From Haplodiscus bocki (lineage: Eukaryota): 64,000 nt of DNA. Every line of letters starts with the position of its first letter. The stretch's first letter is position 1. Both the position numbers and the translations under genes were made by a program. Location of the stretch: contig OZ296650.1 of NCBI GenBank assembly GCA_965655095.1, positions 134,044,001 through 134,108,000 on the forward strand, written 5' to 3'. Below are positions 2,410 through 37,400 of the stretch, piece by piece. The notes below the pieces were generated by a model. That model was given only the letters and a program-made list of their open reading frames with translations, was not told the origin of the DNA and did not search any database.

Positions 2410-5400
2410 ATGAAGCGTCGCCGTTGTATTTCGTGTGGACAATTTGCTGTTGCAAGCCATGTTTGCTTGAAGGACATTGATCGAGAACTTCAATCTGATG
2501 AGCGGCTGGGCGTCTTATACAAAATTCCCGACGTTTCAATCTCCGTTTCACCAGTTGCAAGAAGTGAAACTCTGAACTGTCTCTCAACTTTAGGTCTAAC
2601 TGATTTTTTAGTCTCTCCAGAAGTTTCGATCGCAAATGACAGTATCATTTGTACTTTGCGTCCGGCGCGTGTAACTGCGATTCTTGGCGATGGTAATTGT
2701 CTTTTCTCATCCTTAGCAGTTGCTCTCGGTTTGTCACAGGATTGTAGTTCAATTCTACGGAATATAATTGTTAGCAACATGATGTTCATCAACTTCCCTC
2801 CAAACAGCTTACAAACCACAATTTACTCCGCTGTTTTTCCAAACCAATACCGTGTTTTGCTTTGTACGTCGGTTCAAGAGTACCTCAGTTTGTCGAAAAT
2901 GGAAGAAAATGGAGTCTTCGGAACATGCGTTGAAATATACGCGTTTTGTCAGATTTTCCAAGTGGACGTATATTTATACCATGTTCCTCTAAAATCCTGG
3001 TTGGTTTATGAATTCTCTCTGAGCACGAATCGTCGTGGAATTTTCATTCAGCAAACCTGGAATGCAAATCACTTCGAAGTAATCAGTCAGTTGGTTTCAG
3101 TCGCAAATGAAGAAAACGTTGCAGGTTCACAAAGAATTTCGTGTCTTGGTTCCAACGCAATGCATTTGTCTTTGTCAATTTTGGGAGAAGATAATAAATC
3201 TTTCAGGTACCCAGAAAACACAACAGGGGTGCCACCAGCGAAAAAAGCAAAACACACTGCGGATCCATCCACCTGGAAGACACGCCTTGAAACTCACGTC
3301 ACACCCACTCCAAGTCAGAAATTCTGTAACGCAAAGTCTGATCAAAATTTTCCGATGCTACCGTTGTCAGAAAACGCTACCAAACCTGTTGTGGACAAAG
3401 AAATACCCAAAATCAAGGATCTGTACACTAACACTGCTACGGCTTCACACAGTGATGCGACGATTGAACAAACGACAGATGGTAAATCTAAGTCTGCTGA
3501 CGGAGAGTTTTGCGGCAAATGCTTGCGACAATCCACGCTGCAATATCCGTTAAAGCTTACTAAGAAACAAAAATCAGATTTTAAAAACAGAATGTTTGGT
3601 AACCGAATCAAGGACGCTTTTCCCATATTATGCAATCAATGTCTAATTTACTGCACTTCCGAACGCATCGAGTGGAGTCACGCATGGCCATCTGTTTTTT
3701 TCACGCTTTTGAGTGATGAAAAAATGCCCAAGGAGCAGCAGTTGAATGTTTTAACGTTGTTATCTTGGGAACTGAGACAGCAATGGATGGGTTGCTTGGA
3801 AAAATTTACTCCATGTGTCCAACAATTTCTCAATGGGAAACAAATCAATGGGAAATGTGTCGTTGACGGAACCGCTCGTTTGCATTATTTCCAGAAACTG
3901 ATCAAAACTCTTCTACAAGAACAAATTGCAGTTGCTTTGGATAAAGAACCTTACCCCAACGTTCGGTGCCCATTTGGTTGCTGGTGTTTCATTGAAGAAT
4001 CCGGTTTCATCACTGCGAAACATTTTTTGAATCTATTCGACCCAGCTTTCACATCTTTTGGAGCTTATAGTCATTTGCATCTTAGAGGAATTAGGTCAGA
4101 TTTCTTGGTTCCAACGTCATCATTGCTGAAGTTTCTAATTGCAACAACTGTGTGTGTAGACGAAGAAGAAGGATTGGTTGTTCACGCTTGCCCCATGCAC
4201 TCGAAGGGGTCGTCTGTGCAATACCTTCATCCTCCATCGCATCCTGTCCTGTCAAGAACTGCGTTAATTCACGATGAACGTTTGAGTATGGTGACACCAA
4301 CAATTTCGTGGATAACAAACATTAAAGCAAATTTCGCCAGTTATACCTACCAGTTATTGAAAGGTGTTGGCTCTTATAGTGGAATGAGTACAGTTCAGTT
4401 GCGGCGGAGAACGCGTTGGGACATCACCAGCGATATCTTGTACCACGCTGAAGGCCTCGCTTGCCGTTTTCGAGAAGATGTTAAAACGAAGATTCGTGAA
4501 TGGGTGAGAGAAGGTAAAATCGTTGAAGATGTAGCTTTGGGGATTCTTGACTATCCTGCACAGATTGAGAACATTTCAGACTGTTTGTTGCCTGCCCTTT
4601 CTACAGATTTGGAGACTTGCGTAGAATTAGCTAAAGTTCTAGATAAAAATGATAAAGTTTATTTAAACAACGTGGAAGTTTTGAGCTGTTATTCCTTCGC
4701 CCATGGAACCTGCGAGTATGGTTGTTCGCCCCCTCCTCTGAATTGTAAAGGCAGCAATGTTTTTTGGCTTGTACAAGCTGCACTGTGTCTGTCACCGTTG
4801 ATGTGTCGTTCTTTGGTAACATCAGGTAAGTATTCTGTGACCTTGAAGCCTTTGATATTTTTGCTGAGGAATGTCTTTATTACCTCAAAGGCAATGAAAA
4901 AAACCAGCAATACCCTACTTCTACAGCGCTCGGAAGAAGCAATAAACACCTTGCTAGAGAAAAACAGAACTGAAGAGCAGTTAAAAGGTGTGAAGTACTG
5001 TTGTTGCCATCTCGCAGCACAATTTTTGGCAACTGTGTCTGAGAATTTTTGCCACATCCCCTCAACGAATCGAAAAAATATAACTTGTTATACAAATGTG
5101 CAACTTCCCGTTGAAACAACTCACGCTATATTCACCACCAATTCTCCCAATAATTTGCGGAGCAAAAGCGAGCCTCCGTTAAGGTTGGTTGTCAACGATA
5201 TCGGCTATGAACTGATTGCAGTCGGCGCAAAGGATGGAGGCCCGGCCGCCGAGCCAAGGTTGATGGTTCGACATGCAGGTGACTTCCAAAAGTTCTGGCT
5301 TTTGGAGAAAAGCTGCAGATACGCTAGGAAGATGACAGAATCTAGAACTGAGGCTTTGAGTTCAGGTCTTCGTGGATATTGGACGATAGCAATTTATGAG

Positions 5401-8400
5401 AAATCAAGAAATCTTGAATTAGCTGATTTTAATTGGAACTTTCTGAGCACTTTGACGGGTCAAGGCGTCTTCATCTGTGAATCTCATGACGTTCCTTTGA
5501 CAAGAGCAGTTTTCGTTGTAGATGCACCCGTGCTTCTTTTTTGCGTTGCCCTTATTCCCAATGTAACAGTTGCGTATGCAAGCGTCACTTCAACGAAGGT
5601 CTACAGAGTCCGAATAGGCGTGTTCCTGTTGATCCAATGCCGATGTCGAAAAAGAGGGGAAATACGCAATTCTCACCTGTTAATTCAGAGTCGTCTACCA
5701 TGCAGGTTGTATCAGACACATCATCTATTGTAGAGTCAATCGAATCAAGCGAGCCTGATGCAGCAGCAATTGCCTTTGGTAGGGTGTCTAACAACAATTT
5801 TTCAGTTGTTGGGGATTTCTCTTTCGAAGTTGACAACCATGAACCTCTTGAAGACAGCATGAATGTATTGGCTAGTCTCCAAACTTGCCCTGATAAAAAA
5901 GCTCTTTTCATTGACCCACACCGAAATGAAGATCTTTTCAAACTGCCACTTCACATTCTGCTCAATTCTCAATGCAACCTTTTGTACCGGCATAAAGGGA
6001 GTCCAATCAGTTTGTCGTTGAAAGAAAAACGTTTTTTAGAAAACATTGCAGCAACTTCCACGACAGCGCTGCCTCTAATTCAACCAGAAGCTCTTTTGTT
6101 TCCATCAATTTTTTGGTGTCAAGCTAACAACGGTAGTTTTCATGGAGCAATACCAGCCGCGCTGTACAACAACTCCAAGTACAACAGACAACTGGGTTTT
6201 GCTGGTTTGGAAGACATGCTTCGTACGAGAATCAAAGATGGTTCGCTGTTGACATCATGCAATCCAACTTATTTGCAGTATGTGTTTGACAGCCTTTTGA
6301 ACATGCAGCTTCACAAAACTGATGTTAGATTGGTTTTAAATCGGGGATGGCAGGAAGTGAGTTCCGGCCCTACAAATTGTTCATTTGTTTCAACCCAAAC
6401 GTTCAAGTTTGACTGTGCGGAAAGTCGTAAAAATGTCTGTGAACTCGCAGCTTTAATTCGAGATAAAAATCCAACGTACTTTTTGACATATACTTGCAGC
6501 CAATCGACCCATCCTGGCGTTAGAAAAACTTTTCAAGCACTCTATGAAATGTACCCACCAGAAACTACAAAAAAGGAACTGCTTTCTGCCGCCATTCAAA
6601 CAGAATTGATGCCAATGCTCAGGTGTTGGTATAGAGCTTCACAATACGTAATGGAGTGGGTGAAACAGTCTCCAGAAAGACCACTGGGACCAGTATCCCA
6701 CATTTGGATGCAGTATGAATGGCAGGAGGAGACAGCCGGGTTCCCTCATTTGCATGTGATACTTTGTACTCCAGAAGACAAGTTTTCTAATGAGGTGAGA
6801 TCTCGAGTTTGCTGTTCAAAAGAAACTTTTTTGGGTGCATTAGAAAGCAGTTGCCCTCAATTAACGAAAGACGAAAGGTTGCATCTGGGTGAGTTATTCC
6901 AAAAGTATCAAATTCATAACTGTACCAAAGGGCGTCAGCGGTGCCATAAAAAAACAAATCGTCTCAATCAGCCAATTTGTCGTGTGCCAAGATATCCACC
7001 ATCGAATGCATTTTCGTTCAAAGAAGTTCCCATTAACTTCTCTTCTGAAACAATAGACTTGTTACAAGCCATGGACTTAGCAGACATTGACGTTAACACG
7101 TTGTTGCCGAAGGTCAAAAACCCTCTAATTGCCGGGAAGCATCACTATCCCACTGTTTCTAACGAGCATTTCTCGCCAACAAATGCAGCTTTGTTTTGCA
7201 CTGACACAATCAAGCACTAACGTTCAAATTTGCGACGATTACATGGCACCCCGTTACGTTGCGAAGTATGCAGCGGGCATTGAATCTCGAGCAGCAGCCA
7301 CAATTGTTGCAGGTCAGACAGAGAACAGTGTAAAGGTTCTAACAGAACCGATAAAACATGAGAAGATAGCAGGTGTTCGAGCTTGTTTGAAAAATTTGCG
7401 CCAGGAAGAGAAACGACAATCAGTAAAAGGTCGTATTGTCAGTATTACTGAATGTCTTTGGTGGTGCTTACAACTTCCTTACGTCTGCACAAATGTTGAC
7501 TTTGTACATGTGCCTACAGTTCCCAAAGAATATCGTTCAGGAATTGTAATTGAGAAACGTTTTCACAAGTCTCCGAATTTCAGCGCCACTTTCACTGATG
7601 GAGTCCGTGTGCGAAAAGAATTGTTGGAAATGCCAAAACTTCGACAATTTACAAAAAGTCAAACCCTCCTCCTTGCAGATGTTGAAAACAGTTTCATTTC
7701 TCCTGACAAGGTAACTGTTTTTGGACTGAGGCCGCCGGAACTTTTGTTCGTATCCCAGATAAAAGACTACTACAGCTGGTTTGTGCGGTGCAAACCCACA
7801 AGAACAAACTGGCTTAGCAATCACGAGAAGTTCTTGAAAAAAAGTTTACATAAAAGCTGCTGGGTTGATGCATTTGGATATTTGGTTAAACTGCGCCCAT
7901 CTGCTGTTAACTCTTTCGTAAGTCTCTGTCAAGAAAAGTTTTGTGAAGAACGGAATCAGTTCCTGAAACGCGAAATGAGGAAACACATTGTTCCCATTCT
8001 TGAAAACAAGAACAGTTCTCAGTTCGTTGCTCATTGGAGAAACTTGTCAGAAGAAGAGGCCGTTGTTTTTTTCAGCAACACTCTACCGAATAACTCAACA
8101 AAGTTTTTACTTCATCTGTTACTGACCCTCGGGAAACTTGACACTGAGTTGGACATCTTGAACGTCCAAAGTTTCAAAGAAGCTTTCATAAAAGCGGGTA
8201 TTCTGCTAAACTCAACCGTCACTGATGGCGCAGTGAAAGAAATAGCTAGGAAGTATTTGCTGGAACAGCTTCGCTTCACTCCAGGGTCATCTAAATTGAT
8301 TGAAACTTACTTGGTAATGGCCCATAGTGTTATATCGGAGGCACTGTTAATAAATAATCTATTTTTTGCTGCTGCTTTACCACCTGTTCTGGACAAAAGC

Positions 8401-10466
8401 GTCCTGGAGGAATGCGAAGAAACAGTCACAATTCAACTGGCTATGGAAAAGTGTAAAATGATAGCTTTCCTTCAGACATGTCAGACTGAATTACCTGCAG
8501 AGCAAACGATGATCGACGCCACTTTCAATACTCCAGTGCCTTGGAAGCCACTTTTACAGAAGAGCCCGGATCAAAGTAAAAACTCATATTTAGAGCAACG
8601 TCAAGTTTTGGACGAACTCATTAATTCAATAGACATGTATAAACGAGGACATTGCACTTTCATAAGACATCAGATTGTTTTCGGTCCACCAGGAAGCGGC
8701 AAAACTTTTGTGATGCTGAAATCTCTTGCTTACGCCTTATGTCAAGGATAGCATTGTGTGGTGACATCCATAGCAGCTGAAAGATCGGCTGCTTTAGCTG
8801 GAAAACATCTGAATGCTTTGATACCATTTCCAGTTGAAAAATGTTGCTCTGCAGAATCACTTTCGAAGAAGGCTCTGTCCAATTTACAACGATCTCCTAT
8901 CAAAAGCCGAGTTTTACAGCACTTAGACGTAATTTTCGTTGAAGAACTTTCGATGATATCTAGCGAGCTTTGGGCAGCGACAGATCATGTTTTGCAAGTT
9001 GTCACAGCAAATTATGTTCCTTTCGGCGGAAAACTCGTTGTCGCAACTGGTGACTTCTTTCAACTTCCCCCGCCCTCTGGATCTTACTTGATGAGTTCCT
9101 CTTTTCCTTTAACAACCTTTGCTTTCCACAATTTAAAAATTTCGTCCGAATGCGGAACAAGAACGGCCAGGAACTGTTATCATTGTTATCAGCAACGCCT
9201 AAAACAGATGCCAATGCAGAAAGAATTTGGAAAATTATGGAAAAAGATTGCAATTTTGTACAATCGTGGAACGACGTGCCGAACGACAGAATTCGAATTT
9301 TTGCTACTAGACAAGCGGAACGAAAAGCAACCGAGAATAAAATCAATGAAGTTAAATGCAGCAGAACACAATTCTTTGAAAGTGCGTCCATCGACGAAAT
9401 GTGCGTTTCGAGCACCGACAACTGGAGTGAGGCGACTGCAACAGCGTCGAAGTTCCTGAACAAAAAGTGCCTTGAGCCCCAATCACTTTTTCTATACCCC
9501 GGTGCTATTATGCGATTAACTGTCAACAAACCATCCATATCAGCATATCAAGGTCAACTTTGCGTCCTCCTGACTTTGGAGACCATTGAAAATGGTACCC
9601 TAACAGTTGCTCTTGCTCCAGCTGGTTGCAGAAAGATCCCGCCACTCTCTGTGATCAGAAACAGTTGGAGGTGTGTTGTTATTGGCAAGGAAACCGGTGT
9701 AGCCTTCCGATTAAACCATAAAACAGTGTGCAGGAGGATACAGTATCCGTTAAAGCTTTTTGTTGCGTCCACCATTCACAAGACCATGGGCGAAACTCTG
9801 CCGATGGTGGCGACGCCAATAGTGGGGTCACGAGATTTTGCTTTGTGGCTTCCTGAGCAGTTGTATGTGGTTATGAGCAGGGTAAGGAGTTTGAACCATG
9901 TGACTTTTGTGGGCACGAAGGAGGAGAATAGAAGAGCAGTTTTAGACTTAGTCCGCAAAAAATCACAGTGGGCTGAGCTGACTAATGAAATTCTGACAAA
10001 AAGTTCTGCGCGCCATCCCACAGTTTATCATGCCAAAGCATCGCCTTTTCCACCATCAACTCGTGACCTACCTACCCAAAACTTGGGTTTCTGTTACTTG
10101 CTGCAGAGTGTCCCACAAAGTCAGCTGTTGTACATTGGCTCCACTATGTCATTGGTGCGTCGTCTGAGGGAACACAATTCTGGATTAGGTTCCAAGTTCA
10201 CAAAATTTACAAATCGGTTGCCCTGGAAAGTTTGTGCCTATGTAACTGGGTTCAATTTAACCAATGCGTCTCATAGAGTCCGCGTATTTGAGAAAGAATG
10301 GCTGGATGCAGCATCGAACTACGTTAATCTCACAAAGAAAAATGTATCACTCTTCACAGCCATCAATTTAGGTGAAGACATTGCAAAAACTTGGCCGCAC
10401 AAAGAAGACGGTTTAAAACTTATTGTATGTAGTGGTGAACCCACTGCCTGTTTAAAGCCATGGTGA
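2410..10466 (+). pseudogene. OTU-Rep(HUH)-Pif1 helicase-GIY-YIG polyprotein, disrupted
   Basis: Five ORF pieces collinear with the intact unit 3 protein. Lesions: ~13-nt deletion near 5506, +1 near 7195, TAG at 8749-8751, -1 near 9137. Motifs GDGNCLF, PHLH, YVAKY, GPPGSGKT, GDFFQLPP, CYLL..LYIGST. Confidence 0.9.
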
Positions 10467-11319: not shown

Positions 11320-12330
11320 ATGACAACTCAAGTCAACACCTCCCAAGTAACAGCTCCAATTTTTTTGCGTCGAAGCGAAAATACGTTCGTCAGAGGTATC
11401 GTTCTAGTTACTAAGAAATACGACAAACCTTTGCAGTTGTTTAGACCGCAAAATATCAAAAACAAGAGAGGTGCCCTCGATACCACCTATGACCGATTAG
11501 TCATACTAGGCGAAATCATTTCAAAGGAATGCTTTACTGTGATTGCGGAGTCTGCAAAGAAAATCCCTTTTTTGTTCGGGGACACTCTGTTAAAAGTAGC
11601 GTCAATTGTGGACGTAAAAGAACCTGTGTTCTCCAACTTTTGTCTCGGCAATGACCGCAGTAACCCCATTTTACATGTCTTCCTTCCTTTGGAAGTCGTC
11701 ATTAACGATATTCCTTTGTTGCCAATTCCCATAGATCTCCACCCATCAACGACAGCAATGTTTCACTTTTGCTTGCCAAACATACCCCTCACCTTCTTAC
11801 AAGCAAGTGCTGTGGCTCCAACTTGCTCAGGCTTCATGTGTGACAGAGGAGAAAAACGAATTGACTCTGTATGCCCCTGTATACAAAAATCTCCTGTTTC
11901 AGCTTGGGTAATGTGCGCCCGAATTGTCAGTCGTGACATCGAAAATGAAGACGAAGACCCCCTCACGGGAGAAAAAATGCAAAGTGTTAACCTGACAAAA
12001 AAATTTTGCAGCGAAGCAATTTTTAGAACTTCATATGCATCAATCGATTCGCAACAACTGCGGAAAGCTGTTAACCAGTTGTCCCAATTTGTAAATGAGA
12101 ATGGAGGGTGGCAGTTATATGGATTTTACAAAAGTGGATCCACAATCGAAAATCTTGCACAAAACGTACAACGTGTCCGCATTTGCAAAATTACGCCTGC
12201 AGTTGAAATGCCTTTTAACTTGAAGTACAACATTGTGCCATGCAACGCCAATATTGGCAATGAGCCCCTAGCTTTGCAACATGCGAATGCTAACATCGGT
12301 GCTCCTAACAATCCGAACAACCTACGATAG
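11320..12330 (+). CDS. Conserved 336-aa accessory protein of unknown function, Cys cluster CSGFMCD..CPC
   Basis: Intact ORF; homologues of identical length at 28535 and 45301. Confidence 0.85.
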   Translation: MTTQVNTSQVTAPIFLRRSENTFVRGIVLVTKKYDKPLQLFRPQNIKNKRGALDTTYDRLVILGEIISKECFTVIAESAKKIPFLFGDTLLKVASIVDVKEPVFSNFCLGNDRSNPILHVFLPLEVVINDIPLLPIPIDLHPSTTAMFHFCLPNIPLTFLQASAVAPTCSGFMCDRGEKRIDSVCPCIQKSPVSAWVMCARIVSRDIENEDEDPLTGEKMQSVNLTKKFCSEAIFRTSYASIDSQQLRKAVNQLSQFVNENGGWQLYGFYKSGSTIENLAQNVQRVRICKITPAVEMPFNLKYNIVPCNANIGNEPLALQHANANIGAPNNPNNLR

Positions 12331-13392
12331 CTGATCTAGAGTGACTCTTCAGAAGACCGTTCTTTCTCAACCGCGTGAAATGCTTGCAGGTTTTCAAAAC
12401 CAATCTCTCCTTTCGCAATCGACAGCAAGGTGGTTGCTGAAAAAAAACATGCACAAAGTAACAAGTTTCGCGGAAAAAAATCAACTGATAATGTTGTCCT
12501 CGTTCTTTCATACCAAAGTTTGTTCTCCTGCTTTTTTCAATCTTGAAACCTATGCTTCAATTTTCTTGTTTATGATAAAGTTTAACTTTCCAGTACTTAT
12601 CAGTACCGAAAGGTTAATTGTTGTTTTTTGTAGAACTGTAAACACTAATGTCAAATTAGTTGTTGTTGAACAATGGAAATTAGTTTGCAGCTGCCGACGA
12701 CTTGTCTCTGTAAACTTATGTTTTTCAGTAGCTTAGAACATTGTGCTAATTCGTGCTGCTTTTCAATGTGGTTTGTTGGTTCGTGTACAAGTTTTGAACT
12801 TTTCATATTATCCAATGAACTTCTTTCTTGTTTTGTTAAACATTACTATCCGTTCATCACCGAAAGTTTTGAACTTTGAAAAGATGTCTTGTTCCTCTAT
12901 CGGGCTCAGTGCACACTCTCAGTTTGTTGCTTGACGTTTGATACAGTGAACGCTTTGTAAAACAGGGAAAAGGAATAAAACTAGAAAGTGTTGTAGTTTT
13001 CTCCAACAGAAGAATGGGAACAAACTTTCATACGAAAATTTAGAGAAGTTTTTTCTGAAGTCTATACATGCTCATTTGCTTCAATTAGGTTGTTTTCAGA
13101 AAGTAACAGCTGGGAACCTACTGCCTGCAAATTGACAACACTGGTGCGAAACTTTTTGAGAAAGTTAAAACCCTTTCGCGGGTCAAATTTTGAAAGTATC
13201 CGTTAGGAAAAAAATTTCAGTTTTCCTTCCCAGAAACTCATCAACCTTGAAGTTGTTTGTTAAAGGAACAGCTGCTTTCATAAAATAGTGAGCCAAAATT
13301 TCTTGCCGACGTTCGCAGTGCGCCTGTTTAAGTGTCATAATCAAATTATACGGCAAATTTTGATTTTTTGTGATTTTTTTGTTTTTTTTTCG

Positions 13393-14010
13393 AAAAATTC
13401 GTCATAACCGTCATTTGTTTCGGCACTTTGGCCAAAATTTTTTTATCGTCAAAAAATTATCTTTCAAGTTATGGAGTCAATTTCACAATGGAGCCGCTCC
13501 AGAACGCAAGTTATGTGCATCAATGTGGGAGATATGACGAAATGATCGATTTTCGGCATTTTTTTTCAAATTCGTTCCGTCATATCTCCACACTTATGAC
13601 GATTTGACAGAAAATTTTCGCATGCGTATAGGCCACAGTTAATGTGCTTCACACAAGAAGTTTCGGCCAAATGCGTATGGATACTGCTGGAGGTTGCAGA
13701 AAAAAACCGCAAAATTTTGCCAAAAATAGGAATCATTCCGTCATAAGTCCTTAAACAATTGACCTAGAATGATCTAACCGGAACCATTGTTCTTAGAATT
13801 GTAAAGTATGCCTGCATACAAAGTTTGAACCAAATCGTATGGGTGGGAGCTGAGATCGCTATTTCTACACCCCCGTTTCCACAGATGTAAAACACTAACT
13901 ACTAAAACGGCTCGGCAAAGGGGCCCCTCCCCCGCCTCGCAAAGGCCTGATATGGGGCAAAAACCCCTGACCACCCAGTGGAGGCAACGGTGCAAATTAC
14001 TAGAGGGCGG
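13393..14010 (+). repeat. Terminal module (~600 bp) with CGTCATA/TATGACG motifs and GC-rich hairpin end, unit 1
   Basis: Homologous to 30308-30915, 47336-47950 and 48378-48995. Ends GGGGCCCCTCCCCCGCCTCGC...GACCACCCAGTGGAGGC..CGGTG.AAATTACTAGAGGGCGG. Confidence 0.85.
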
Positions 14011-17251: not shown

Positions 17252-17449
17252 CCACATTGCATGTATTTTTCTGGATACTCCTTTTTTCGAATTAATTAGA
17301 AGCTACCGTTACTTGAACAGTTTGAAAGCCGAGCAAAACGATGTCATTTTGTACGTTGGTTCTATAATGGCGCCTACTCTTTACATTGTATTCACTATTA
17401 AAGATCAGTGATTGATAGACTTTTGAGCGAAGTTTGTTGTGAAAGAGTA

Positions 17450-20400
17450 ATGCCATCTGGCAAAAGTGATTTGAAAAGACGTCGCTGTGCAAAATGTGGA
17501 CGCTTCAGTGAACGTAATCACTCCTGTCCAAATACCAATGACAATTTTTCTTCAACCAGCGAACCATTAGGAATTTTGTACAGTATAGCTGATAGTAATT
17601 TACTGGTCTCCTCTGTTGATACCCTGCACATAGAATCAACGTTGAAAGCGTTGGGACTATCCTGTTCCCCAACAAGCGGCATAATTGTTAATAAAACTAA
17701 CATTCGCCTCACTTCTGTTCAACCCTCGCAGAGTCTTAAAATAACGGGTGATGGTAATTGTCTTTTCACTGCCCTGGGCGTAGCCATCGGTTTCTCTCAT
17801 GAAAGTGGTCATGATTTGAGGAAACTTATTGTAAGTAACATGGACTTGGTAACTTTTCCGGAAAACAGTTTGCAAACTTCAATCTATTCCGCTGAGTTCC
17901 CCAACCAGAACAAACTTATCACCGGCCCAACTGTCAACCACTACCTGCAGACATCGCGAATGGCAGAAATTGGAGTTTTTGGCACTTGTGTGGAAATTTA
18001 TACCTTTTGTCAAATTTTTAAATTGGACGTTTATGTATACCACAGTATTTTGAAAAGTTGGTTCGTTTACAAATGCGATTGCTCAAATGACAGACAAGGG
18101 GTTTTCATTCAACAAACGCGAACTGGAGATCACTTTGAGGTAATTAGTGGCTTGACCGAAACATACCACACTTCATCACTCCGATCAGAAGATTTTGCTG
18201 GCTCGAGTAGTCAGTGTGGAAATTCAGCAATGAATACTCAATGCCACGTAATGCAAACAACGCTTGCAGCAGTTGCTGAAACTGAGCCCTTGCGGAAGCG
18301 CAGACGGACTTCAGAATATCCAGTCGCGACATGTTTGATCGAAAATAGAGAAAGTGATACAGCTGTGACATCTTTTTGCTTGGCGGAAGCTGTTTGTGGT
18401 GAAGAAAATACTACAACGCAAAGTAGAGGCTGTCCTCCAACTGCTGTGGAACATCGACAACATCAATTTGACAGATTGCCTGGAGGCGAGTTGACTGATG
18501 AGATTTTCTTGGAATTAACTGCAAACTTTGTACCATCATCGAAATTGACTGAAGAATCAACCGTAGAGATTGAATCAAAATTGGCTGTGAAAGATACTGT
18601 CGATGCTGCCAACGTTTGTTGCAAGTGTATGCGTCAAGCCACAGTTTATTTTCCGTTCGACATTAAGGCCTACAGCAAAGTGGGATTGGTTAATAGAAAG
18701 TTCGGTAGGAAGCTGGAAAACGAAGTTGTACATCTGTGTTGTTCCTGTTACAACTATTGCACTGCACCAAAGGTTGACTGGCAAATGGCTTGGCCAGCTG
18801 TTTTTTTCACGCTCCTTTCTGATACTTCCAAGCCAGAAGCTTGTTTAGTCGCTATTTGCTCGTTGTTACCACTAGAAATAAGGCAACATTGGCTGGGAGT
18901 AATAACCCTTTTCCCTATCTGCATCCAGGGTGTTCTAAATCGGCCGCGTATTCTTGGCACATGCACTGTTGATGGAACACGGAGATTGAAACGTTTCGAG
19001 CAATTAATGAGAACAATGAGACAAAAAGAAATGGTTGAAGCTTTGGACCTTGAACCGTATCCAAACATACGTTGCCCTTTTGGTTGTTGGACGTTTATCG
19101 AAGATCCCGGGTACATACCAGCGCAGCATTTTATAAACTTGATAGACAAAACTTTCTCATCATTCCAAGCGTCTGCATTCAAGAAACTCAGAGGCGCTAG
19201 ACTCGACTTTTTGCGTCCTTTGATGTGCTTAGAGACGTTTCTAGTGGCAGCCACGGTCCGGTTACACAAGAAAGAAGGTTTGGTTGTGCAAACTTGTTCT
19301 GCGCATGACAGGGGATGTGCGCTACAGTTTTTGCATCCCCCCAGGCATCCGGAGCTGGGACGAATTCCAACTTTGTTTGAGGAACGATTAGCCATTGCAT
19401 CACCTTCATTGTCGTGTGTGAGTAGCTTAAAGGCTAATTATGCTAGCCACACCTATCAACTGTTTCGGAGCGTTGGGTCTTATAGTGGTATGAGTACTGT
19501 TTCGTTGAGACGTAAACGGCGTTGGAACATCACTAGCAACCGTTTGTTCCAGGCTGAAGGAACCGCCATGTTTTTCAGGTCAGATATTCCCATTTTAATT
19601 AGACAATGGGTTGCTCAAGGTAAATTGATTGAAGATGTCGCCACTGATCTCTCCCAATATCAGCCCAAAAAGGAAAAAATGACGGAGCATGTCGGCGTAG
19701 ATCTTGACACCTGCATTCGATTGACGAACGTGATCGACAAAAACGAACAAGAACTTTTGAGTAATGTGAAATTTCTTCAGTGCTACGCTTTGGCTCAACC
19801 AAACAATGAACATGGTTGCTCACCTCCTCCTCTGATCAATGATACTGGAGATACACTCTGGTATCTTCAAGCAGCATGCTGCATATCTCCAATTTTATGT
19901 TCATCCATGGCATCTGGCGTTAATCACGTTTTGGCAAAAAATTTGTTGTCACTCTTGCGGCACACATTTACTGGGTTTGCAAAAGAAAGCAAGTTGCAGC
20001 GTATTTCACAAGCTCAGGCTGACATTGACAATATATTGAATAACGCGGTGACTGATAATGACAACCCAAACATGATTTCAAACTTATTTCAGGCGGGTGG
20101 CGTGGTGTTGCACGCATTATGTGCTGACTTATGTCATCTGCAGTTGAGCCGAAGATCAGAACTGACTGACCAATTTGTGCGGGACGTAACTGTCGAAACG
20201 AAACACGTGATTGCTACAACAACTGATGTGAACAATCTGAGGAGCAAGGTCAACCCACCTCCCAACATCGTCCTATTTGATGTTCAATTTGAGCTTGTGG
20301 GATGTGGTTGTGGTTCTTGGGGAACAGATGCTGTAATTTTGCTTCGACATGCTGGTCGCTTCTGCAATTTTTGGCGTATACTGAAAGCTAACAAGTTTGC

Positions 20401-23400
20401 TGAACCTTTGTTGGACTCACCTGAGACCTTACTAGATAAAATTCTACGAGGCAACTGGACATTTTTAATCTACCGAGGAACTAACTCTAAAAAGGTGTCG
20501 ACTGTAAAGTGGCAATATCTCAGTAATTTAACCGGCCAAGGAGTTTTCATTTGTGACAAACATGATGTTCCGTTAACAAGGGACTTCCGACGTAGCAACT
20601 ACTTCTGTCGATGTGGAAGGTCATCATTCCTCAGATGTGCCTACTCAAAGTGCAACAGTTGTGTGTGTAAGAAACACTTCGACGAGGGAATGAAAAATCC
20701 GAACTTACGAGTTTTAGTTGGACCTATAGCCGAACAAAGACCAAACGCTGAAGCTGCAATCAATGCTACACAGTGTGAACTGACTTCCAACATAGCTAGT
20801 TTTTGTGAGCAGGACAAAAGCGTTGTTGAACGAGATTTATCCATCAACTGTTCAAGTCAAAACTCAAATTCATCAGTTGCTTCTCTTTTGTGCAACAACA
20901 TGAACGCAAACTCTATCAGCGAAAGTGAATTGGCGATGAATAATTTGAACGTGTGTTCGGGTGAAAGGCCCATTGTTGCTGTACAAAAGGATACTAGAGA
21001 AGAAGATTACATAATTCCCCTCCACATACTGTTGAATTCTCGATGCAACTTACTATACAGGAAAAAAAGTCATCCCATTTCCCTAACCGTTAAAGAGAAA
21101 CGTTTCATGGAAAACATAACAGCTTCCTCAACATCATCAACGCCTTTGCTTCAACCGGAAGGGCTGCTTTTTCCTACTATTTTCTGGTGCCAAAGTTCCG
21201 ATGGCAGCATTGAAGGAGCAATTCCAATATCCCTTTTCCAATCCGAGAAATACAACAAACAAGTGGGGTTTGCAGGTTTAGAAAACATGCTGCGAACTCG
21301 CATCACTGATGGGTCGCTTTTAACCTCTAGTCACGCATCATATCTTCAGTTCGTTTTTGACTGTCTTTTAAATTTGCAATTGAGTAAAACTGATATTCGA
21401 ATTGTGTTGAACAGAGGCTGGCAAGAATTGGGCAGTACGCCTACAAATTACCAGTACTATTCAGCTGAAACGTTCAAGTTCGATTGTGAAGAATCCCGAA
21501 AAAATGTCTGTGAAGTAGCAGCACTTATTAGAGATAAAAACCCCACTTATTTTGTTACATACACATGTGGGCAATCTACTCACCCTGGCTTGCGCAAAAT
21601 TTTCGCGGCTATTGACAAACTTTACCCGCCCGATATGACATCCAAAGAACTGAGATTATCTGTAATACAAAGTGAATTAATGCCTATGCTTAGATGTTGG
21701 CATCGAGCCTCACAGTATGTAATGCAATGGTTGAAATGTTCGGCCGAACAACCTTTGGGACCAATCTCTCACTTATGGATGAGATACGAGTGGCAAGATG
21801 AAACTTCGGCCTTTCCACACATCCATGCACTAGTGTGTACAGGAGAAAACAAGTTTGGTCCGGAAGTTCGTTCCCGAGTCTGCTGTTCAAAAGAAACATT
21901 CATGGGCGCCTTGAGTGACTGTTGTCCAGCGTTATCGGATAGCAAACGGTTCCGGTTGGGAGAACTTTTCCAAAAATACCAACGGCACGATTGTGGCAAG
22001 GGAAAAAATAGATGTAAAAAAAACTGATTGGTTAGGAAAACCAGTGTGTAGAGTGCCCAAATATCCTGCATCAGTTGGGTTCTCTTACAAGCAAATACAA
22101 CCAAATTACTCGAAGGAAACTTGGGACTTGTTGAGAGGCATGAAATTGTCCTATATTGACCCTAACTCTTCAACATACAAAGTTGAGGAAGAACTGAAAG
22201 CTGGAAAGCATCACTACCCTGCTGCTTACAACGAACACATGTCACCAACAAATGCAGCTTTGTTTGCTTTCACTGAAAGTAGTACGAACGTCCAAATTTG
22301 TGACGACGAAATGTGTTCACGCTACGTTGCAAAGTATGCTGCCGGTGTGGAAGGCCGGGCCTTCACAAAAATAGTAGCGTATGCTGGTGAGAATGAAGTG
22401 AAAGTCGAAACGGAACCAATTGTGAACGAAAAAATAGCCGGTGTCCAAACTAGCGTTACCAAAAAACGTCAAGATGATGATAAACGCAAATCTGTAGCAG
22501 GAAGAATTGTTAGTATAACTGAATGCTTGTGGTGGGCTTTGCAGTTGCCGTACGTTTGCACAAACGTAGATTTCATTCATGTACCAACAGTTCCCAAAGA
22601 GTTCAGATCTGGAATAGTGATAGAAAAGCAAATTGCGAGGACCATGAATTTCAGTGCTGTTTTTGCCGAAGCTGTTCGAATTCGGAAAAACGTTCTGAAG
22701 CTTCCAAAACATCGACAATTAACAAAAAATCAAGAATTGTTGTTGGCAGATGTCGAAGTAAGCTCAATTACGCCTGACAAAGTGACTATTTTTGGCCTTA
22801 GACCACCGGAGCTTTTGTTTGTCAGTAGTTTGAAAAGTTATTTCAGCTGGTTCGACAGATTCAAAATCAACAGTTCGAAAGGCAAAAGTAGTCATGAGAT
22901 TTTGTTGAGTCGTGCATCGTGTAATGACTTTTGGGTTGATTGCCTTGGATACGTTATCAAGATACGCCCACCCGCAATCTTTGATTTTATTGATTTCTGT
23001 TCAACGAGAAGTGGTAACCGGAGGGACGAATTTTTGAAAGAGGAGTGCCGCAAACACGTTCTCCCCAAATTGCAAGGAACCAACAGTTGCCCCAGACTAG
23101 TAGCGTACAATCTTTGTTTCTCAGATCAAAAAGCCATTGTGGTTTTCACTAATACTCTACCCAGTAGTCCTACAAAGTTCTTGTTGCATTTTGTGCTAAC
23201 TTTTGGTTAGTTTGACACCGAACTGGATATTCTTACTGTTTCCTCTCTCAGGGAAGATTTTGTAGCTGCCAAACTTGTGGAGCGTAACAAAATTACTGTA
23301 GCAGTTGTGCTTCAACTAGCTCGCCGCTACCTATTGCAACAGCTCAGCTTCGTGCCGGGATCCTCTAAACTCATTGACAAGTTTTTGTTGATGGCAAATA

Positions 23401-25529
23401 GCGTTCTAGGAGAGGCACTGTTAGAAAACAATTTGTATTTTGCATCCGGGGTACCAGCTGTTTTGGATCGCACTATCTCTGCCGACTCCGAATAAAATGT
23501 TGCTGTAGATTTGACAATCAGCAAGACTAGATTGGTGGAATTCTTACACACATGTCAAATGGGACTTCCAAGCGAAGAAAGTATGATAGATGCTTCCATA
23601 ACTGCACCCGTTGATTGGATACCCGACTTCGATAGACATCATAGCCAAACAGTGAAATCGTACTGTGAACAGAGTAAGATTTTGAAATATTTAGTTGAAA
23701 TCGTGGACTTGTACAGAGGAGGAACACAAAATTTCGTCAGACATCAAATCATCGCTGGGGCGCCAGGAACGGGAAAAACATTCATCATGTTGAGAGCTCT
23801 GAGTTATGCAATATGTCAAGGACTCAATTGCATGGTAACTTCGCTGGCGGCCGAAAGGTCGGCTGCTTTAGGTGGCAAGCATCTAAACGCTCTGATTCCT
23901 TTCCCGGTGGAGAAAAATGGAACTGTTAATTCTTTGTCTCGAGTAGCTTTGTCCAGTTTGCAGAAATCACCGGACAAAAGTCGGTTTCTCCAGAATTTGG
24001 ATGTATTGTTCGTTGAAGAAATTTCGATGATCTCTAGTGAGCTTTGGGCTGCGACGGACCGCGTTTTCCAAATCATTTGTTCGAACTACGTGCCATTTGC
24101 TGGCAAACTAATCATTGCAACAGGAGATTTTTTTCAACTTCCTCCTCCAAAAGGAAGTTGTCTGATCAGTTCTTCATTCCCTTTAACGACTTTTCATTTC
24201 AGTTTCCTCGAGCACTTTGTGCGTATGCAAAATGATACGGGTCAGAAAGTTTTGTCACTCATGTCAACTTTTCCCAGAACAACTGCCATCGGAAACCAAA
24301 TTTGGAATTTGATCGAGCGAAATTGCAATTTCGTAGAATGTTGGGATGACGTACCAAATGATACAATTCGAATTTTTGCTACTCGCAAAGCAGAAAGATA
24401 TGCGACGTTGAAGAAAATTAATCAGGTGAAAGACAGTGGTTCCCAGTTCCATGAAAGTTCATCAACAGATGAAATGTGTGTGTCAAGTACGGACAACTGG
24501 ATAGAAGCTTCGGGAGCTGCTACAAAGTTTTTAAACAAGAAATGTTTGGAGCCACAATCATTGTTTCTGTTTCCCGGAGCAATTCTTCGACTCACAGTAA
24601 ACAAGCCAAATGTGATGGCTTTCCAAGGACAACTGTGTGTTTTGGTTTCCCTGGACTCGTTCGCTGACAACGGAACAGTAACTGTTGCCTTGGCATCTGC
24701 TGGTTGCCGATCCATTCCACCACTCTCTGTAATACGAAGTACCTGGAGATGTATTGTCCTCGCAAAGGAAATCGGAGTGAACATTCGTCTAAACGACAGA
24801 ACTATTTGTCGCAGAATCCAATTCCCCCTCAAGTTGTACGTAGCGTCAACTATTCATAAAACTATGGGCGAAACACTCCCAACAGTTGCTACGCAGATTG
24901 TTGGAGCTCAAGAGTTTTCGCTTTGGTTGCCAGAGCAACTATTCGTAGTAATGAGTCGTGTTCGATCACTGACGGACATCACCTTCGTGGGATCGAAGCA
25001 GTCCAACGAAGGAGCCATCCTGAGTTTGCTCTGTAAAAAGTCACAGTGGTCGGAGCTGACTACCGAAATCCTCCAGAAGTGTTCTTCCCGTGACCCAACG
25101 ATCTTCCATGGTGCTACAAGCCCTTTTCCGTCAACCATCAGTATACCGCAGGAGAATGTTGGCTACTGTTATCTTATTCAGAGCCTCCCGCAAAACAACT
25201 TGTTATACATTGGTTCAACAATGTGCCTCAATCGACGAATTCGTGAACATAATGTTGGCTTGGGAGCTTCATTCACGCATGATCCCTCTCGAAGACCTTG
25301 GGTTTTGTGTGCTTACGTGACCGGCTTTCTTGCAAGCAGCTCAACGGAGAGAATAAGGTTTTTTGAAAAACAGTGGCTTGGGGCAGTCACTAAAGTGCTT
25401 AACTTGAGGAAGAAGAACATCTCCCTCCCGAATGCATTGTCAACAGCAGAAAACTTAATCATGAATTGGCCTCATAATGAAGATGTCTTGAAGTTGGTAA
25501 TTTGCTGTAATCAGCCCATATTGCATTAG
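17450..25529 (+). pseudogene. OTU-Rep-Pif1-GIY-YIG polyprotein, disrupted
   Basis: First ATG at 17450. Frameshift in A-run near 22016-22023; in-frame stops at 23208-23210 and 23493-23495. Motifs GDGNCLF, FPHIH, YVAKY, GAPGTGKT, CYLI..LYIGST..RRIREHN. Confidence 0.9.
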
Positions 25530-28534: not shown

Positions 28535-29545
28535 ATGACCACCCATGTCAATACGGCCCAAATAACTGCTCCCAATTTCTTGCGCAACAGTGAGAACACG
28601 TATATCCGAGGTGTTGTTTTGGTTTTTAAAAAATTTGATCGTCCCCTACAGTTATTTCGACCGCAAGCTGTAAAAGCTAAAAGAATGACCCCTGACACAA
28701 ACTATGATCGCCTAATCATCATCGGCGAAATCCAGACGCGAGAATGCTTTGCAATAATAGCAGATTCTGCGCAGAAAAGTTCACTCCTTTTTGTTGACCG
28801 AAAATTAACTATTGGTGCCATCGTTGATGTGAAAGAAGCTATTTTTTCCAACTCCTGCCTTGGTAACGATCGAACCAATCCAATTTTCAACGTGTCTCTT
28901 CCGTTAGAGGTAGTTATCGACGACCTGCCAATGGAGCCTATTCCTATCGATTTGAATCCCTCGACGGGTGCAATGTTCCACTTCTGTCTCCCACACCGAC
29001 CCCTTTCGTTTTTGCACGCTATTCCTGTGTTTCCGACTTGTTCCGGTTTTTTGTGCGACAGAAGAAATAGAAAAAACGAAAGCATTTGTGCATGTTTGCA
29101 AAAATCAACTTTGTCAGCATGGGTCATGTCAGCAAGGGTAGTTAGTCAGGACATATTGAACGAAGACGATGATCCTCTAACAGGGGATATTCTGCAAAGT
29201 TTGTCATTGACCAAACTTTTTTGTGAGGAAGCTATCATTAGATCGGCATACACATCAATTGACAGGGGACTTTTGAGAGAAGCCGTCATGCGTGTTGCTA
29301 ACCATGTTAATAACAATGGTGGGTGGAGAGTGTCAGGCTTCTACAAAACTGCTTTAACAGAAGAAAACATTGCGCAAAATGTTCAAAGGGTGAGAATTTG
29401 TCGAATCACTCCAGCGATTGAGATCCCTGTGAACTTGAAGTACAATGTGATTCCTTGGAATGGAGATGATACAAACCAGCCACCACGCCTTTTTCACGCT
29501 AACGCAAATTTGCCGGCAAGTAACAATGCAAACAACATGAGATGA
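28535..29545 (+). CDS. Conserved 336-aa accessory protein (unit 2 variant)
   Basis: ATG at 28535 aligns with the starts in units 1 and 3; intact; shares YDRL, CLGNDR, MFHFCLP, CSGFxCD, NGGW..GFYK, AQNVQRVRIC. Confidence 0.85.
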   Translation: MTTHVNTAQITAPNFLRNSENTYIRGVVLVFKKFDRPLQLFRPQAVKAKRMTPDTNYDRLIIIGEIQTRECFAIIADSAQKSSLLFVDRKLTIGAIVDVKEAIFSNSCLGNDRTNPIFNVSLPLEVVIDDLPMEPIPIDLNPSTGAMFHFCLPHRPLSFLHAIPVFPTCSGFLCDRRNRKNESICACLQKSTLSAWVMSARVVSQDILNEDDDPLTGDILQSLSLTKLFCEEAIIRSAYTSIDRGLLREAVMRVANHVNNNGGWRVSGFYKTALTEENIAQNVQRVRICRITPAIEIPVNLKYNVIPWNGDDTNQPPRLFHANANLPASNNANNMR

Positions 29546-34209: not shown

Positions 34210-34470
34210 GTCTGGTTTATGAATGGTTGGAATTGAATTATGATTTTTTACAGTACTGCCTTATCTTTTTCGCGGCATCGAACCTGAAATTTAATTAGGC
34301 AGGCAACGGTTTGTAATTGAACCGTAAAAGACTTCGCTCAAACGACAATTTGATGTATTTACCTATTATACGAATTTCCCTGCTAATTCTTCAACGTGTG
34401 TTTGTATTGTAACATCTTGTTTTTTCATATAGTCATGATCCCACTGAATTAATGTCTGTTGTGTTTTACA

Positions 34471-37400
34471 ATGTCAAAACAAAACAACAAAGGAAACTTG
34501 AAGCGTCGTCGTTGTACTTCCTGTGGACAATTTGTTGGAGAACATCATGTGTGTGCAAAATCAATTGAGCTGGAACTTCAGGTCAACGAGCCTTTAGGAA
34601 TTTTATACAAAATTCCCGATGCATCAGTTGCTGTGTCACCTACCGCGAGAACGGAGATACACAGCTCGCTGAACACTTTGGGGTTGATGGACTTTTTAAA
34701 GCCTACAAAAACAGCTATCGGAAACGATACAGTTATCTGCTCCATGCAGCCAGTCCGGGTAACAGCAGTGCTTGGGGACGGTAATTGCCTTTTTTCTTCT
34801 CTGGCAGTTGCTCTGGGACTGTCACATGAATGTGGCCCAATCATACGTAACATTATTGTCAGCCACATGAATTTAATCAGTTTCCCCCCTAATAGCCTGC
34901 AAACATCTGTTTACTCCGATGACTTTCCCAACCAACATCGTGTTTTGAGTTGTACTTCCGTCGATGAGTACCTCCGCGAATCTAGAATGGCAGAAAATGG
35001 TGTTTTTGGAAGCTGTGTAGAAATATATTCATTTTGCCAAATCTTCAAAGTAGATGTTTTTTTGTACCATGTTCCATTCAAATCCTGGATGATTTATGAA
35101 TGTTCCTCCAACGTAAATAGAAAAGGAATTTTCATTCCACAAAACCGGAATGCAAATCACTTCGAGGTGATAACAGAGCTGGTTTCAATTGGTCCTGAAA
35201 GCTCCAGCTTATCGCAAGTTGCATCAATTAATCGCCCTCCTTCTCAATCAAGCGAAACTAATCATTGGAGTCAAGCCTTGCAGAACTGCGAAGGAACTGA
35301 AACTGAACCAGCTTCGAAAAAAAGCAAAGTCAATTCTGATTACACCTGGGAAGAGCACCCTGACCCGCTCGCATTAAGTCTCTTCGCCAATTCTGTATCT
35401 ACCAAAATGAAGAAACTTTCGGCCTTGGAAACATTATCAACAAATTCAACGAACCTCCCAAAGAACGATTGTTCACAAATGCTGGAACCCCCATGTTTTG
35501 ACTTTTCCCCAACAGATAGTGTTTCAGGAAATATGCACACGAACGGCGAGTGCCCAAATTTGGGCGGATGTGACTGTTGCGCAAAATGCATGCGCCAGTC
35601 AACAGTTCTTTACCCTTTAAAGTTGAAGAGGAAGAATAAATTTGATCTTAAAAACCGTGTGTTTGGAAACAAGCTAACGGAGCCCATTGTTGTTTTATGT
35701 AAGCTCTGTCTTCTCTATTGCACAACCGAAAGTTATGATTGGTACAATGCTTGGCCCTCTGTGTTTTTCAGCCTATTGAGTGATCAAGACATGCCAGTTA
35801 GAACCCAAATGGATATTTTGTCTTTGTTACCTTGGGAATTGAGACAGCAGTGGATGACATCCATGCACTACTTTCCCCTGTGCGTTCAAAGATGTCTAAG
35901 TCGGAAACGGATTGCTGGGAAATGTTCCGTTGATGGGACGCTTCGTTTGCGTCGTTTCCACGAACTCATGAAAACCTTGAAGCAGACTAACATTGCTCTT
36001 GCCCTGGACAATGAACCTTATCCCAACGTCCGCTGCCCATATGGGTGCTGGTGTTTCATTGAAGAATCAGGTTGGATACCCGCAAATCACTTCATCAATC
36101 TTTTTGAAAGAAACTTTACCTCGTTTCAGTCCTCCAGCTTCCTGCATCTAAGAGGAATTAGGTCCGACTTTTTGACACCATTTGTGTCCCTGCGCCAGTT
36201 CTTAGTAGCGACTACAGTGCGAGTTGATGAAAAAGCGGGACTCGTGGTTCAGGCTTGCTCCAGGCACTCAAGAGGCTCCAGTGTGCAGTACTTTCATCCG
36301 CCATCACATCCTTCGCTGGTGCGAACTACAGTGAATTATGAAGAACGTCTTAGTGCCATCGCACCCACATTGTCGTTCATCTCAAGCATAAAAGCCAACT
36401 TCGCCAGTCATACGTACCAATTGCTAAGAAGTGTTGGCTCTTACAGTGGAATGAGCACAGTCCGATTGAAGCGGAAAACGCGCTGGGATTTCACTAGTGA
36501 CATTTTGTATCATGCTGAAGGCGTCGCTTGTCATTTCAGAGAAGACATCAAAACAATGATTCGTGAGTGGGTAAGACAGGGTAAAATCCTTGATGACGTA
36601 GCTTCGGGAATGCTGGATTATGTACCGGACAAAAAGAAAGTCAACAGTTGTTTGTCACAGGCCACTTCAATAGACTTACAAACATGCCTGAACCTCACGA
36701 AAATAGTGGAAATGAATGAAAAAGAATATCTCAACAATGTTGAGTCGTTGAGTTGTTACACTCTCGTTCATGGGAATGATGATTACGGCTGCTCTCCACC
36801 TCCTCTGGAAAATAGAGTAAGCATAGTATCGTGGATTGTGCAGGCTGCAGTTTGTGTTTCCCCAATACTTTGTCGATCCTTAGTGAAATCATCAAAATAC
36901 AGTGTGACACTTAGGCCTTTGTTCACTTTACTCAGGAAAGTGTTGCTTGGCACCGCAAGAATGAATACAGCAAAAGTTTTATGGCTTGTTAGAAAATCCG
37001 AACAAGCAGTCTCAGCTGTCATAGAACAAACTAACACTGATGACAAAACAGAGGGAACAACCGACTGTTGTTGTTTTGTAGGAGCAAGGTTTCTTTCAGA
37101 AATTTGTGACACCATTCAACACGTTCCCTTAAACAAACGGAAGAATATCGGTTCAGCCACAACAGAGCAAGTTTCGTACAACATGACTCATGCCATTTTT
37201 ACGACAGGTTCCCCAAAAAATTTGCGGAACAAGGTGAAACCACCGTTAACCCTGATTATTTCCGACAATGAATTCGAATTGATTGCAGTTGGAACGAAGG
37301 ATGGAAGCAGCAAGGGAGAACCGAGGTGGTTGGTTAGACATGGAGGGAGGTTTCAGGGGTTTTGGCTCATTGAGAAAAGTAAAAAATTTGCCACAAAAAC

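What the first reader, a model, noticed from the sequence alone, without database searches (positions are those of the whole stretch)
11320..12330. Orphan 336-aa protein conserved to the exact codon count in three units
Seen: 1011 nt in all three copies, no net indels despite many substitutions between units 1 and 2. It has beta-strand-like hydrophobic patterning, a CSGFxCD-x8-CxC cluster, NGGWxxxGFYK and an Asn-rich tail. Known: some Helitrons carry RPA-like OB-fold ssDNA-binding genes. Inference: most likely a divergent Zn-containing OB-fold SSB; a capsid-like fold would instead imply a viral stage.
Basis: inference. Interest (0 to 1): 0.7.

Follow-up and report, generated by a model that had tools for sequence, protein, structure and literature searches.

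The report
Transposon's own single-strand DNA-binding protein
The orphan gene is the second gene of an unusual family of rolling-circle jumping elements, has been inherited with their transposase over very long evolutionary distances, and encodes a protein predicted to fold like the cell's single-stranded-DNA-binding proteins, so it likely coats the DNA strand that the element peels off when it copies itself.

Summary
The three 1011-nt frames exist, but copy 3 has a premature stop, copies 1 and 3 are 94% identical, and equal length is unremarkable. The gene is real: synonymous sites are saturated between subfamilies while only 23% of non-synonymous sites differ. It has no Pfam match. AlphaFold (pLDDT 90) gives two domains: an N-terminal OB fold (Z 9.5) and a second domain with four invariant cysteines that best matches zinc-bearing RPA70C/Teb1/CTC1 OB domains (weak, Z 5.2). 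It is a near-constant partner of a Helitron-like transposase (OTU-Rep-Pif1-GIY-YIG) that groups apart from the host's HLE1 and HLE2 elements. It lies downstream of 110 of 117 such Rep hits in this genome, 0 of 24 other Helitron hits, and 13 of 14 informative metagenome loci. The two gene trees are congruent (10 of 16 splits shared). One recently spread subfamily has an intact transposase but lacks the gene, so it is not needed in cis. DNA binding is untested. SSB genes in Helitrons are known; I found this family and its long co-inheritance undescribed. The scan had already noted this array type elsewhere in this genome (e1-9365549).

The parts
11320..12330 (+). ORF2, intact 336-aa two-OB-fold protein (the finding)
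11320..11715 (+). OB domain 1, residues 1-132 (conserved K32, Y57-D58-R59, F72, E101-P102)
   Evidence: VIA Z 9.5 to Teb1 and Oxytricha telomere protein, 9.0 Mcm10, 8.9 RPA70; conservation
11737..12204 (+). Domain 2, residues 140-295, predicted Zn-ribbon-containing OB (RPA70C/Teb1 OB-C/CTC1-like)
   Evidence: best Z 5.2, rmsd 4.6, 127 aligned
11824..11880 (+). Invariant C169, C174, C185, C187: predicted zinc site
   Evidence: invariant in 90 of 90 and 99 of 99 aligned sequences
28535..29545 (+). ORF2 copy 2, intact, 63% amino-acid identity
45301..46311 (+). ORF2 copy 3, premature TAA at 46108-46110
2410..10466 (+). RepHel transposase gene of the unit carrying the finding, broken into several frames
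17408..25529 (+). RepHel of unit 2, broken
34459..42528 (+). Intact RepHel, 2689 aa: OTU-like, HUH Rep, Pif1 helicase, SLX1-like GIY-YIG
52777..60827 (+). RepHel (split in two frames) of the subfamily that lacks ORF2
13360..13975 (.). Conserved ~620-bp non-coding terminal block ending GACCACC, with a GC-rich stem-loop about 30-60 nt from the end
13969..13985 (.). Element-to-element junction GACCACC|CAGTGGAGGC (CTGG|GTGGTC on the minus strand); also at 30875, 47909, 48953
47916..48959 (.). 1044-bp gene-less unit with the same two ends

Best explanation
This is the second gene of a divergent family of Helitron-like rolling-circle transposons, and it encodes a protein predicted to have two OB folds and a zinc site that likely works as the element's own single-stranded-DNA-binding protein. 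Shown: the gene lies just downstream of the transposase gene, is under purifying selection and has been co-inherited with the transposase. Predicted: an N-terminal OB fold plus a Zn-ribbon OB of the RPA70C class, without a long C-terminal helix. Inferred mechanism: the HUH Rep nicks one element end, the Pif1 helicase peels off a 15-18-kb strand, and this protein coats that strand. Coating would keep it from re-annealing or being degraded until it is copied, circularised and inserted. It probably acts alone rather than as a subunit of host RPA. It can be lost from an element, so it is supplied in trans by neighbours or replaced by host RPA.
For: Structure: AF2 mean pLDDT 89.9, pTM 0.86. Foldseek PDB: archaeal RPA E 1.4e-5, then RPA70- and CST-containing complexes. 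Viral library: the top 10 rows are baculovirus proteins, 9 of them named LEF-3 (LEF-3 as an SSB is recalled). Domain 1 Z 9.5. Domain 2 folded alone: 8 of the top 9 VIA rows are RPA/Teb1/CTC1/POT1 C-terminal OB domains and the ninth is Cdc13-Stn1; the top 6 Foldseek rows are RPA-containing, weakly. A remote homolog's Atlas neighbours are POT1, CTC1, CDC24-OB and MEIOB clusters (0.90-0.91, low recognition score). Conserved aromatic and basic residues K32, Y57, R59, R176, R248, W264, F/W269, K271. Selection: pS 0.74-0.87 against pN 0.20-0.37 between subfamilies. Linkage: 110 of 117 clade Rep hits have an ORF2 hit <9.5 kb downstream; 0 of the other 24 listed hits (canonical-type, mostly higher-scoring) have one within 20 kb (6 of the 147 rows were left out as fragments). 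16 of 59 metagenome loci fetched by RepHel alone carry it, including 13 of 14 with the RepHel end and >=2.4 kb downstream. Trees of 19 pairs share 10 of 16 splits (shuffled mean 0.15, max 2), Mantel r 0.93.
Against: No sequence-level similarity to RPA: none to solved chains, to Pfam or to the host RPA70C exon. The domain-2 match is weak (Z 5.2, in the range common for unrelated models; Foldseek E>=0.018), and whole-protein TM-scores are only about 0.2-0.3. OB folds also bind RNA and proteins. A subfamily without ORF2 has an intact 2684-aa RepHel and 99.5%-identical copies on three chromosomes; 2 of 6 long units in the 124 kb around the window lack it, as does metagenome locus L053. One supported split conflicts between the trees, and 3 of the 19 pairs were matched only by equal contig length. 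dN/dS between the young copies 1 and 3 is 0.5.
Confidence: 0.7

Rival explanations
1. It is a sequence-specific end-binding factor of the POT1/CST/Mcm10 type. It would recognise the element's G-rich terminal strand, steer insertion to element-element junctions and/or recruit host Pol alpha-primase for second-strand synthesis.
For: Best domain matches include telomeric OB proteins (Teb1, Oxytricha telomere protein, CTC1) and Mcm10, tied within 1 Z unit with RPA70. Atlas neighbours include POT1 and CTC1. All 30 of 30 element ends examined (of 76 found) abut another element's end at G(A/G/C)C(C/G)ACC, in many end-to-end combinations. Lagging-strand synthesis on the peeled strand is proposed for Helraiser (PMC5876387, passages).
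Against: The ORF2-less subfamily also starts at such junctions in 3 of 4 copies fetched. Targeting can be explained by Rep nicking a site like its own circle junction. Structural ties do not separate specific from non-specific binders.
Confidence: 0.18
2. It is a host-conflict accessory protein, for example an RPA mimic that hides the intermediate from checkpoint or silencing systems, or binds RNA, rather than a replication factor.
For: It is dispensable in cis. The elements carry other accessory ORFs. The ORF2 module is swapped between subfamilies whose RepHels are 68% identical.
Against: Long co-inheritance with RepHel across elements of 31-57% GC and strong purifying selection suit a core function better than an arms-race factor.
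Confidence: 0.07
3. It is a recently captured or domesticated host gene, or passive cargo.
For: Helitrons capture genes, and HELIANO's authors treat RPA-type domains as fragmented ancient captures (PMC11417382, passages).
Against: The gene is intronless, has at least 215 listed matches and sits beside the clade's Rep. The host's own RPA70 is a separate two-exon match to PF08646, which reported none of the ORF2 copies. The tree follows the transposase.
Confidence: 0.03
4. It is a capsid protein, and the element has a viral stage.
For: Beta-rich sequence; HUH Rep proteins also serve ssDNA viruses (general knowledge).
Against: Both folded domains (residues 1-132 and 140-297) align to OB folds, and domain 2 holds a 17-residue helix and a Cys4 cluster. 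That leaves no unassigned folded stretch for a jelly roll.
Confidence: 0.02

Closest known systems
Helitron-encoded RPA-like proteins (plant PHRPA/Mothra; RPA and Ssb-like_OB domains of HLE1/HLE2; divergent RPA of zebrafish and Nematostella Helitrons)
   Same: A separate OB-fold gene beside RepHel, proposed to bind ssDNA. At least three independent acquisitions are argued in PMC4683698 (passages); positions relative to RepHel are given in PMC11417382 (passages).
   Different: The known ones are found through RPA/Pfam similarity (PF08646, PF21473) and are described as fragmented and patchy. This family has no Pfam or RPA sequence match, is intronless here, has only two OB domains and accompanies most members of its clade. 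I could not compare it with the zebrafish/Nematostella proteins, so identity with them is not excluded.
RPA70 DBD-B/C, Pyrococcus RPA1, Tetrahymena Teb1, CTC1
   Same: OB fold followed by a Zn-type OB; best structural matches.
   Different: About 10% identity. The Cys spacing is C-x4-C-x(5-16)-C-x-C, against C-x2-C-x13-C-x2-C in the host RPA70 exon. The model has no long C-terminal helix (the RPA trimerisation helix is recalled).
Baculovirus LEF-3
   Same: A ~330-450-aa OB-fold protein encoded by a mobile genome; top viral fold hit, E 1.3e-4.
   Different: 7-11% identity, TM about 0.25; shared fold only.
HLE1/HLE2 Helitrons, and the third clade 'HLE Paramecium' (PMC13085455)
   Same: HUH Rep + Pif1 fusion. 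CTRG at one end. Like the Paramecium elements: very long transposase ORF, target specificity, ORF orientation varying relative to the ends.
   Different: The Rep region is 15-18% identical to host HLE1/HLE2 and forms its own branch (SH-aLRT 98). Motif 2 is E[FWY]Q-x2-3-GNLPHxH-like, DUF6570 is absent, and a C-terminal SLX1-like GIY-YIG is present. The Paramecium paper mentions neither GIY-YIG nor RPA; whether it is the same clade could not be tested.

Membership tests
OB-fold ssDNA-binding proteins (RPA/CST/POT1 class) | OB fold | tested here: met
   Predicted model; domain 1 Z 9.5, rmsd 2.9-4.5, 95-104 aligned
OB-fold ssDNA-binding proteins (RPA/CST/POT1 class) | Second OB of the Zn-ribbon (RPA70C) type | tested here: inconclusive
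   Consistent top hits but Z 5.2, rmsd 4.6, 127 aligned, and E>=0.018; four invariant Cys
OB-fold ssDNA-binding proteins (RPA/CST/POT1 class) | Binds ssDNA and zinc | not testable with these tools
   Needs biochemistry; conserved aromatic/basic residues only
RPA70 / Helitron RPA family (PF08646, PF21473) | Pfam or sequence similarity to RPA | tested here: not met
   0 families for the query; no RPA-type family for 34 homologs; PF08646 reports only the host gene; no RPA chain at E<=10
RPA70 / Helitron RPA family (PF08646, PF21473) | Three or more OB domains and a C-terminal trimerisation helix (recalled) | tested here: not met
   Model has two domains; after the last strand (280-293) there is only a short turn and a low-confidence, unconserved tail
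Jelly-roll capsid protein | Eight-stranded beta sandwich | tested here: inconclusive
   Both domains are positively assigned to OB-type folds
Helitron-like elements (carrier) | HUH Rep fused to Pif1 helicase | tested here: met
   PF14214 E 1e-5, PF05970 E 5e-11; HUH motif; Helraiser 7lcc E 6e-20 over the helicase part
HLE1 | 5'-TC and CTRR-3' ends, insertion in AT, Rep within the HLE1 clade | tested here: not met
   One end reads CTRG but the other reads GTGGYC, and ends abut other elements; Rep 15% identical to the one host HLE1-type sequence in the tree
HLE2 (Helentron/Helitron2) | DUF6570 marker; Rep within the HLE2 clade | tested here: not met
   DUF6570 present in host controls L154 and L161, absent from window and P0192 RepHels; separate branch
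HLE Paramecium (third clade) | Transposase groups with the Paramecium elements | not testable with these tools
   No sequences available; 7 supplements searched, 2 too large to read

The most novel reading that the evidence does not exclude
A widespread third lineage of eukaryotic rolling-circle transposons runs on a two-gene module: a RepHel-GIY-YIG fusion plus its own CST/POT1-like end-binding OB protein. That protein recognises the element's terminal single strand, directs insertion into junctions between existing elements and recruits second-strand synthesis, so that the elements build their own safe-haven arrays.
Probability: 0.2. Interest if true: 0.78.

Novelty: new variant of a known kind. 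Interest (0 to 1): 0.5.

Why it matters
Whether Helitron-borne RPA-like genes do anything in transposition is open; HELIANO's authors call them fragmented and probably non-essential captures (PMC11417382, passages). This family is intact in most copies (101 of 120 listed matches have no internal stop) and has travelled with its transposase across Rep identities of about 26%, which argues for a real function. The same genome offers a natural experiment: near-identical young elements with and without the gene, each with intact transposase copies. It also gives a marker, invisible to Pfam, for a Helitron-like lineage that scores poorly on standard profiles and appears to insert at a defined junction sequence. 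It would be a further independent SSB acquisition by Helitrons, not a new kind of system.

Tried and rejected
Pfam on the query and on 34 homologs: nothing relevant. Profile against PDB sequences: 2 chance-level hits. ESM Atlas on the query: no usable hit. No jelly-roll or capsid entry among the listed rows of the fold searches; such an absence does not exclude a fold. Viral contigs: none with RepHel or ORF2; phage records none. Other ORFs of the metagenome elements gave only weak coiled-coil-type Pfam rows, including a sub-threshold phage scaffold hit at E 0.009. None of 22 metagenome contigs had terminal repeats. The deep alignment was too variable for the locus finder. Expression: no RNA holder listed; three RNA runs under a different organism label gave 1-5 partial reads under 90% alike, so nothing is known about expression. 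Complex prediction (homodimer with Zn) was not available (queue full; last try), so oligomerisation is untested. 'Exact codon count' as a sign of a special constraint was rejected. No strong, shared hairpin was found next to the CTRG end, so which end is 5' and which is 3' is unsettled. Literature: nine searches found no description of this family or of a GIY-YIG-fused Helitron clade, apart from one HLE2 family in Sphagnum with a GIY-YIG. Repbase and most subscription journals are not covered.

Full report
Observation. The window is part of a 1.5-Gb eukaryotic genome and is a head-to-tail array of 15-18-kb units. Three units hold a 1011-nt frame downstream of a long gene. Two frames are intact; the third has a TAA at codon 270. 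Copies 1 and 3 are 93.6% identical and copy 2 is 63.1% identical, with differences concentrated at third codon positions (105/60/208). Between subfamilies synonymous sites are saturated or nearly so (pS 0.74-0.87) while pN is 0.20-0.37, so this is a protein gene under purifying selection. Equal length is not special: the chance of no indel at the neighbouring transposase core's rate is 0.24-0.38, and relatives differ in length.

The family. No Pfam family matches, and none that is relevant matches 34 of the homologs tested. A full search found 137 unnamed homologs down to about 20% identity. In an alignment of 90 sequences (near full-length ones picked, fragments left out), C169, C174, C185 and C187 are invariant, and R59, F150, G171, D175, S222, N259, G263, G268 and P293 nearly so. 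Conservation ends near residue 295; the Asn-rich tail is not conserved.

Fold. AlphaFold2 gives pLDDT 89.9 and pTM 0.86, with low confidence only in the tail. Foldseek ranks Pyrococcus RPA first (E 1.4e-5), then RPA70- and CST-containing complexes, with low whole-chain TM-scores; among viral models baculovirus LEF-3 leads. Residues 1-132 align to OB folds at Z 9.5 (Teb1, Oxytricha telomere protein), 9.0 (Mcm10) and 8.9 (RPA70), which are ties. Residues 140-306 folded alone (pLDDT 88.2) match Teb1 OB-C (Z 5.2, rmsd 4.6, 127 aligned), Cdc13, CTC1, RPA70C, archaeal RPA and POT1C, and RPA-containing entries by Foldseek at E 0.018-0.26. This second assignment is weak in score but consistent in kind, and it fits the four Cys. 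A remote homolog's language-model neighbours are POT1, CTC1, CDC24-OB and MEIOB clusters, with a low recognition score. There is no sequence similarity to solved RPA chains or to the host's own RPA70, a separate two-exon PF08646 match.

The carrier. The long gene (intact, 2689 aa, at 34459-42528) has OTU-like, HUH Rep, Pif1 and SLX1-like GIY-YIG parts. Its Rep region is 15-18% identical to canonical HLE1- and HLE2-type elements of the same genome. With 30 relatives it forms its own branch (SH-aLRT 98; one HLE1-type and four HLE2-type rows; unrooted; 11 of 40 alignment rows left out as redundant). It lacks DUF6570, the HLE2 marker, which the controls have. Every unit, including 1044-bp gene-less ones, runs from CAGTGGAGGC to GACCACC on the plus strand. 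All 30 of the 76 pattern matches that I examined abut another element's end, and end types join in many combinations. This suggests insertion at junctions; it was seen before I read the same idea in an earlier scan note. In most other subfamilies the genes face the other way relative to these ends.

Linkage. In this genome 110 of 117 clade Rep hits have an ORF2 hit less than 9.5 kb downstream on the same strand, against 0 of 24 other, canonical-type hits within 20 kb (using the capped lists; 6 fragment rows were left out, and ORF2-less subfamilies may be under-sampled). All 8 distant subfamily loci fetched carry it. Of 59 metagenome loci fetched by RepHel alone, 16 hold an ORF2 homolog, including 13 of the 14 that reach the RepHel end and have at least 2.4 kb beyond it (about 11 of 12 distinct elements). 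It lies on either strand, and the contigs range from 31 to 57% GC. Trees of 19 gene pairs (11 metagenome, 5 from this genome, 3 paired by equal contig length) share 10 of 16 splits (shuffled mean 0.15), with one supported conflict; Mantel r is 0.93, and 0.95 for metagenome rows alone.

Against essentiality. Two of six long units around the window lack the gene. One such subfamily has an intact 2684-aa RepHel and copies 99.5% identical on three chromosomes. Locus L053 also lacks it. The ORF2-plus-end module has been exchanged between subfamilies: about 90-95% DNA identity beyond position 10820, while their RepHels are 68% identical.

Mechanism. Helraiser is nicked at its left end, one strand is peeled off, and circles form (PMC5876387, passages). 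I infer that ORF2 coats the displaced strand of these 15-18-kb elements, acting alone because the model lacks a long C-terminal helix (the role of that helix in RPA is recalled), and that neighbours or host RPA can replace it (0.70). The main rival is a sequence-specific end-binding or primase-recruiting role (0.18). Host-conflict accessory (0.07), passive cargo (0.03) and capsid (0.02) follow. Binding, zinc, oligomerisation and expression are all untested.

Comparison with print. RPA-like genes in Helitrons are known and were acquired at least three times (PMC4683698, passages). HELIANO describes RPA and Ssb-like OB domains in HLE1/HLE2, one HLE2 family with a GIY-YIG, and a few unclassified clusters (PMC11417382, passages and supplement search). 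PMC6431247 (passages) adds nothing on this clade. A third clade with 9-10-kb ORFs, target specificity and reversible ORF orientation is described in Paramecium, with no mention of GIY-YIG or RPA (PMC13085455: abstract, sections 7, 14 and part 1 of 18, and 7 supplements searched; 2 supplements were unreadable and may bear on this). Nine searches found no description of this protein family. It works like an RPA-type SSB but fails membership of the RPA70/PF08646 family. Verdict: a new variant of a known kind; interest 0.5.

Noticed in passing
window 43107-43858 (+): Two-exon ORF (GT-AG intron about 43324-43579) between RepHel and ORF2 with SGNH/GDSL-hydrolase-like motifs judged by eye (IITDSLG, FIGGN, DGVH); no Pfam hit. 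Other subfamilies have 209-236-aa ORFs at this place. An SGNH gene in a fish Helitron is in print (PMC4021074, search listing only).
   Followed up: partly
window 13969, 30875, 47909, 48953 and genome-wide: Elements of many subfamilies, in both orientations of their genes, meet at one junction sequence (CTRG|GTGGYC) in varied combinations, suggesting targeted insertion at element junctions.
   Followed up: partly
window 47916-48959: 1044-bp non-autonomous unit sharing both ends with the long elements; four such units lie in 124 kb.
   Followed up: partly
window 41900-42528 (C-terminus of RepHel): SLX1-like GIY-YIG nuclease fused to most RepHels of the clade; its role is unknown, perhaps resolving branched intermediates.
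   Followed up: partly
window 48960-64000: Subfamily lacking ORF2, recently spread, with an intact RepHel copy at G000:C3:3233843-3241894.
   Followed up: yes
G000:C4:64092274-64128285 and G000:C3:27156583-27174969: ORF2-like matches repeated at about 3-kb and 6-kb spacing, too close for whole elements: possibly satellites made from element fragments.
   Followed up: no
L061, L066, L085, L053: Metagenome relatives carry several further long ORFs (up to 1465 aa) with no Pfam family.
   Followed up: no
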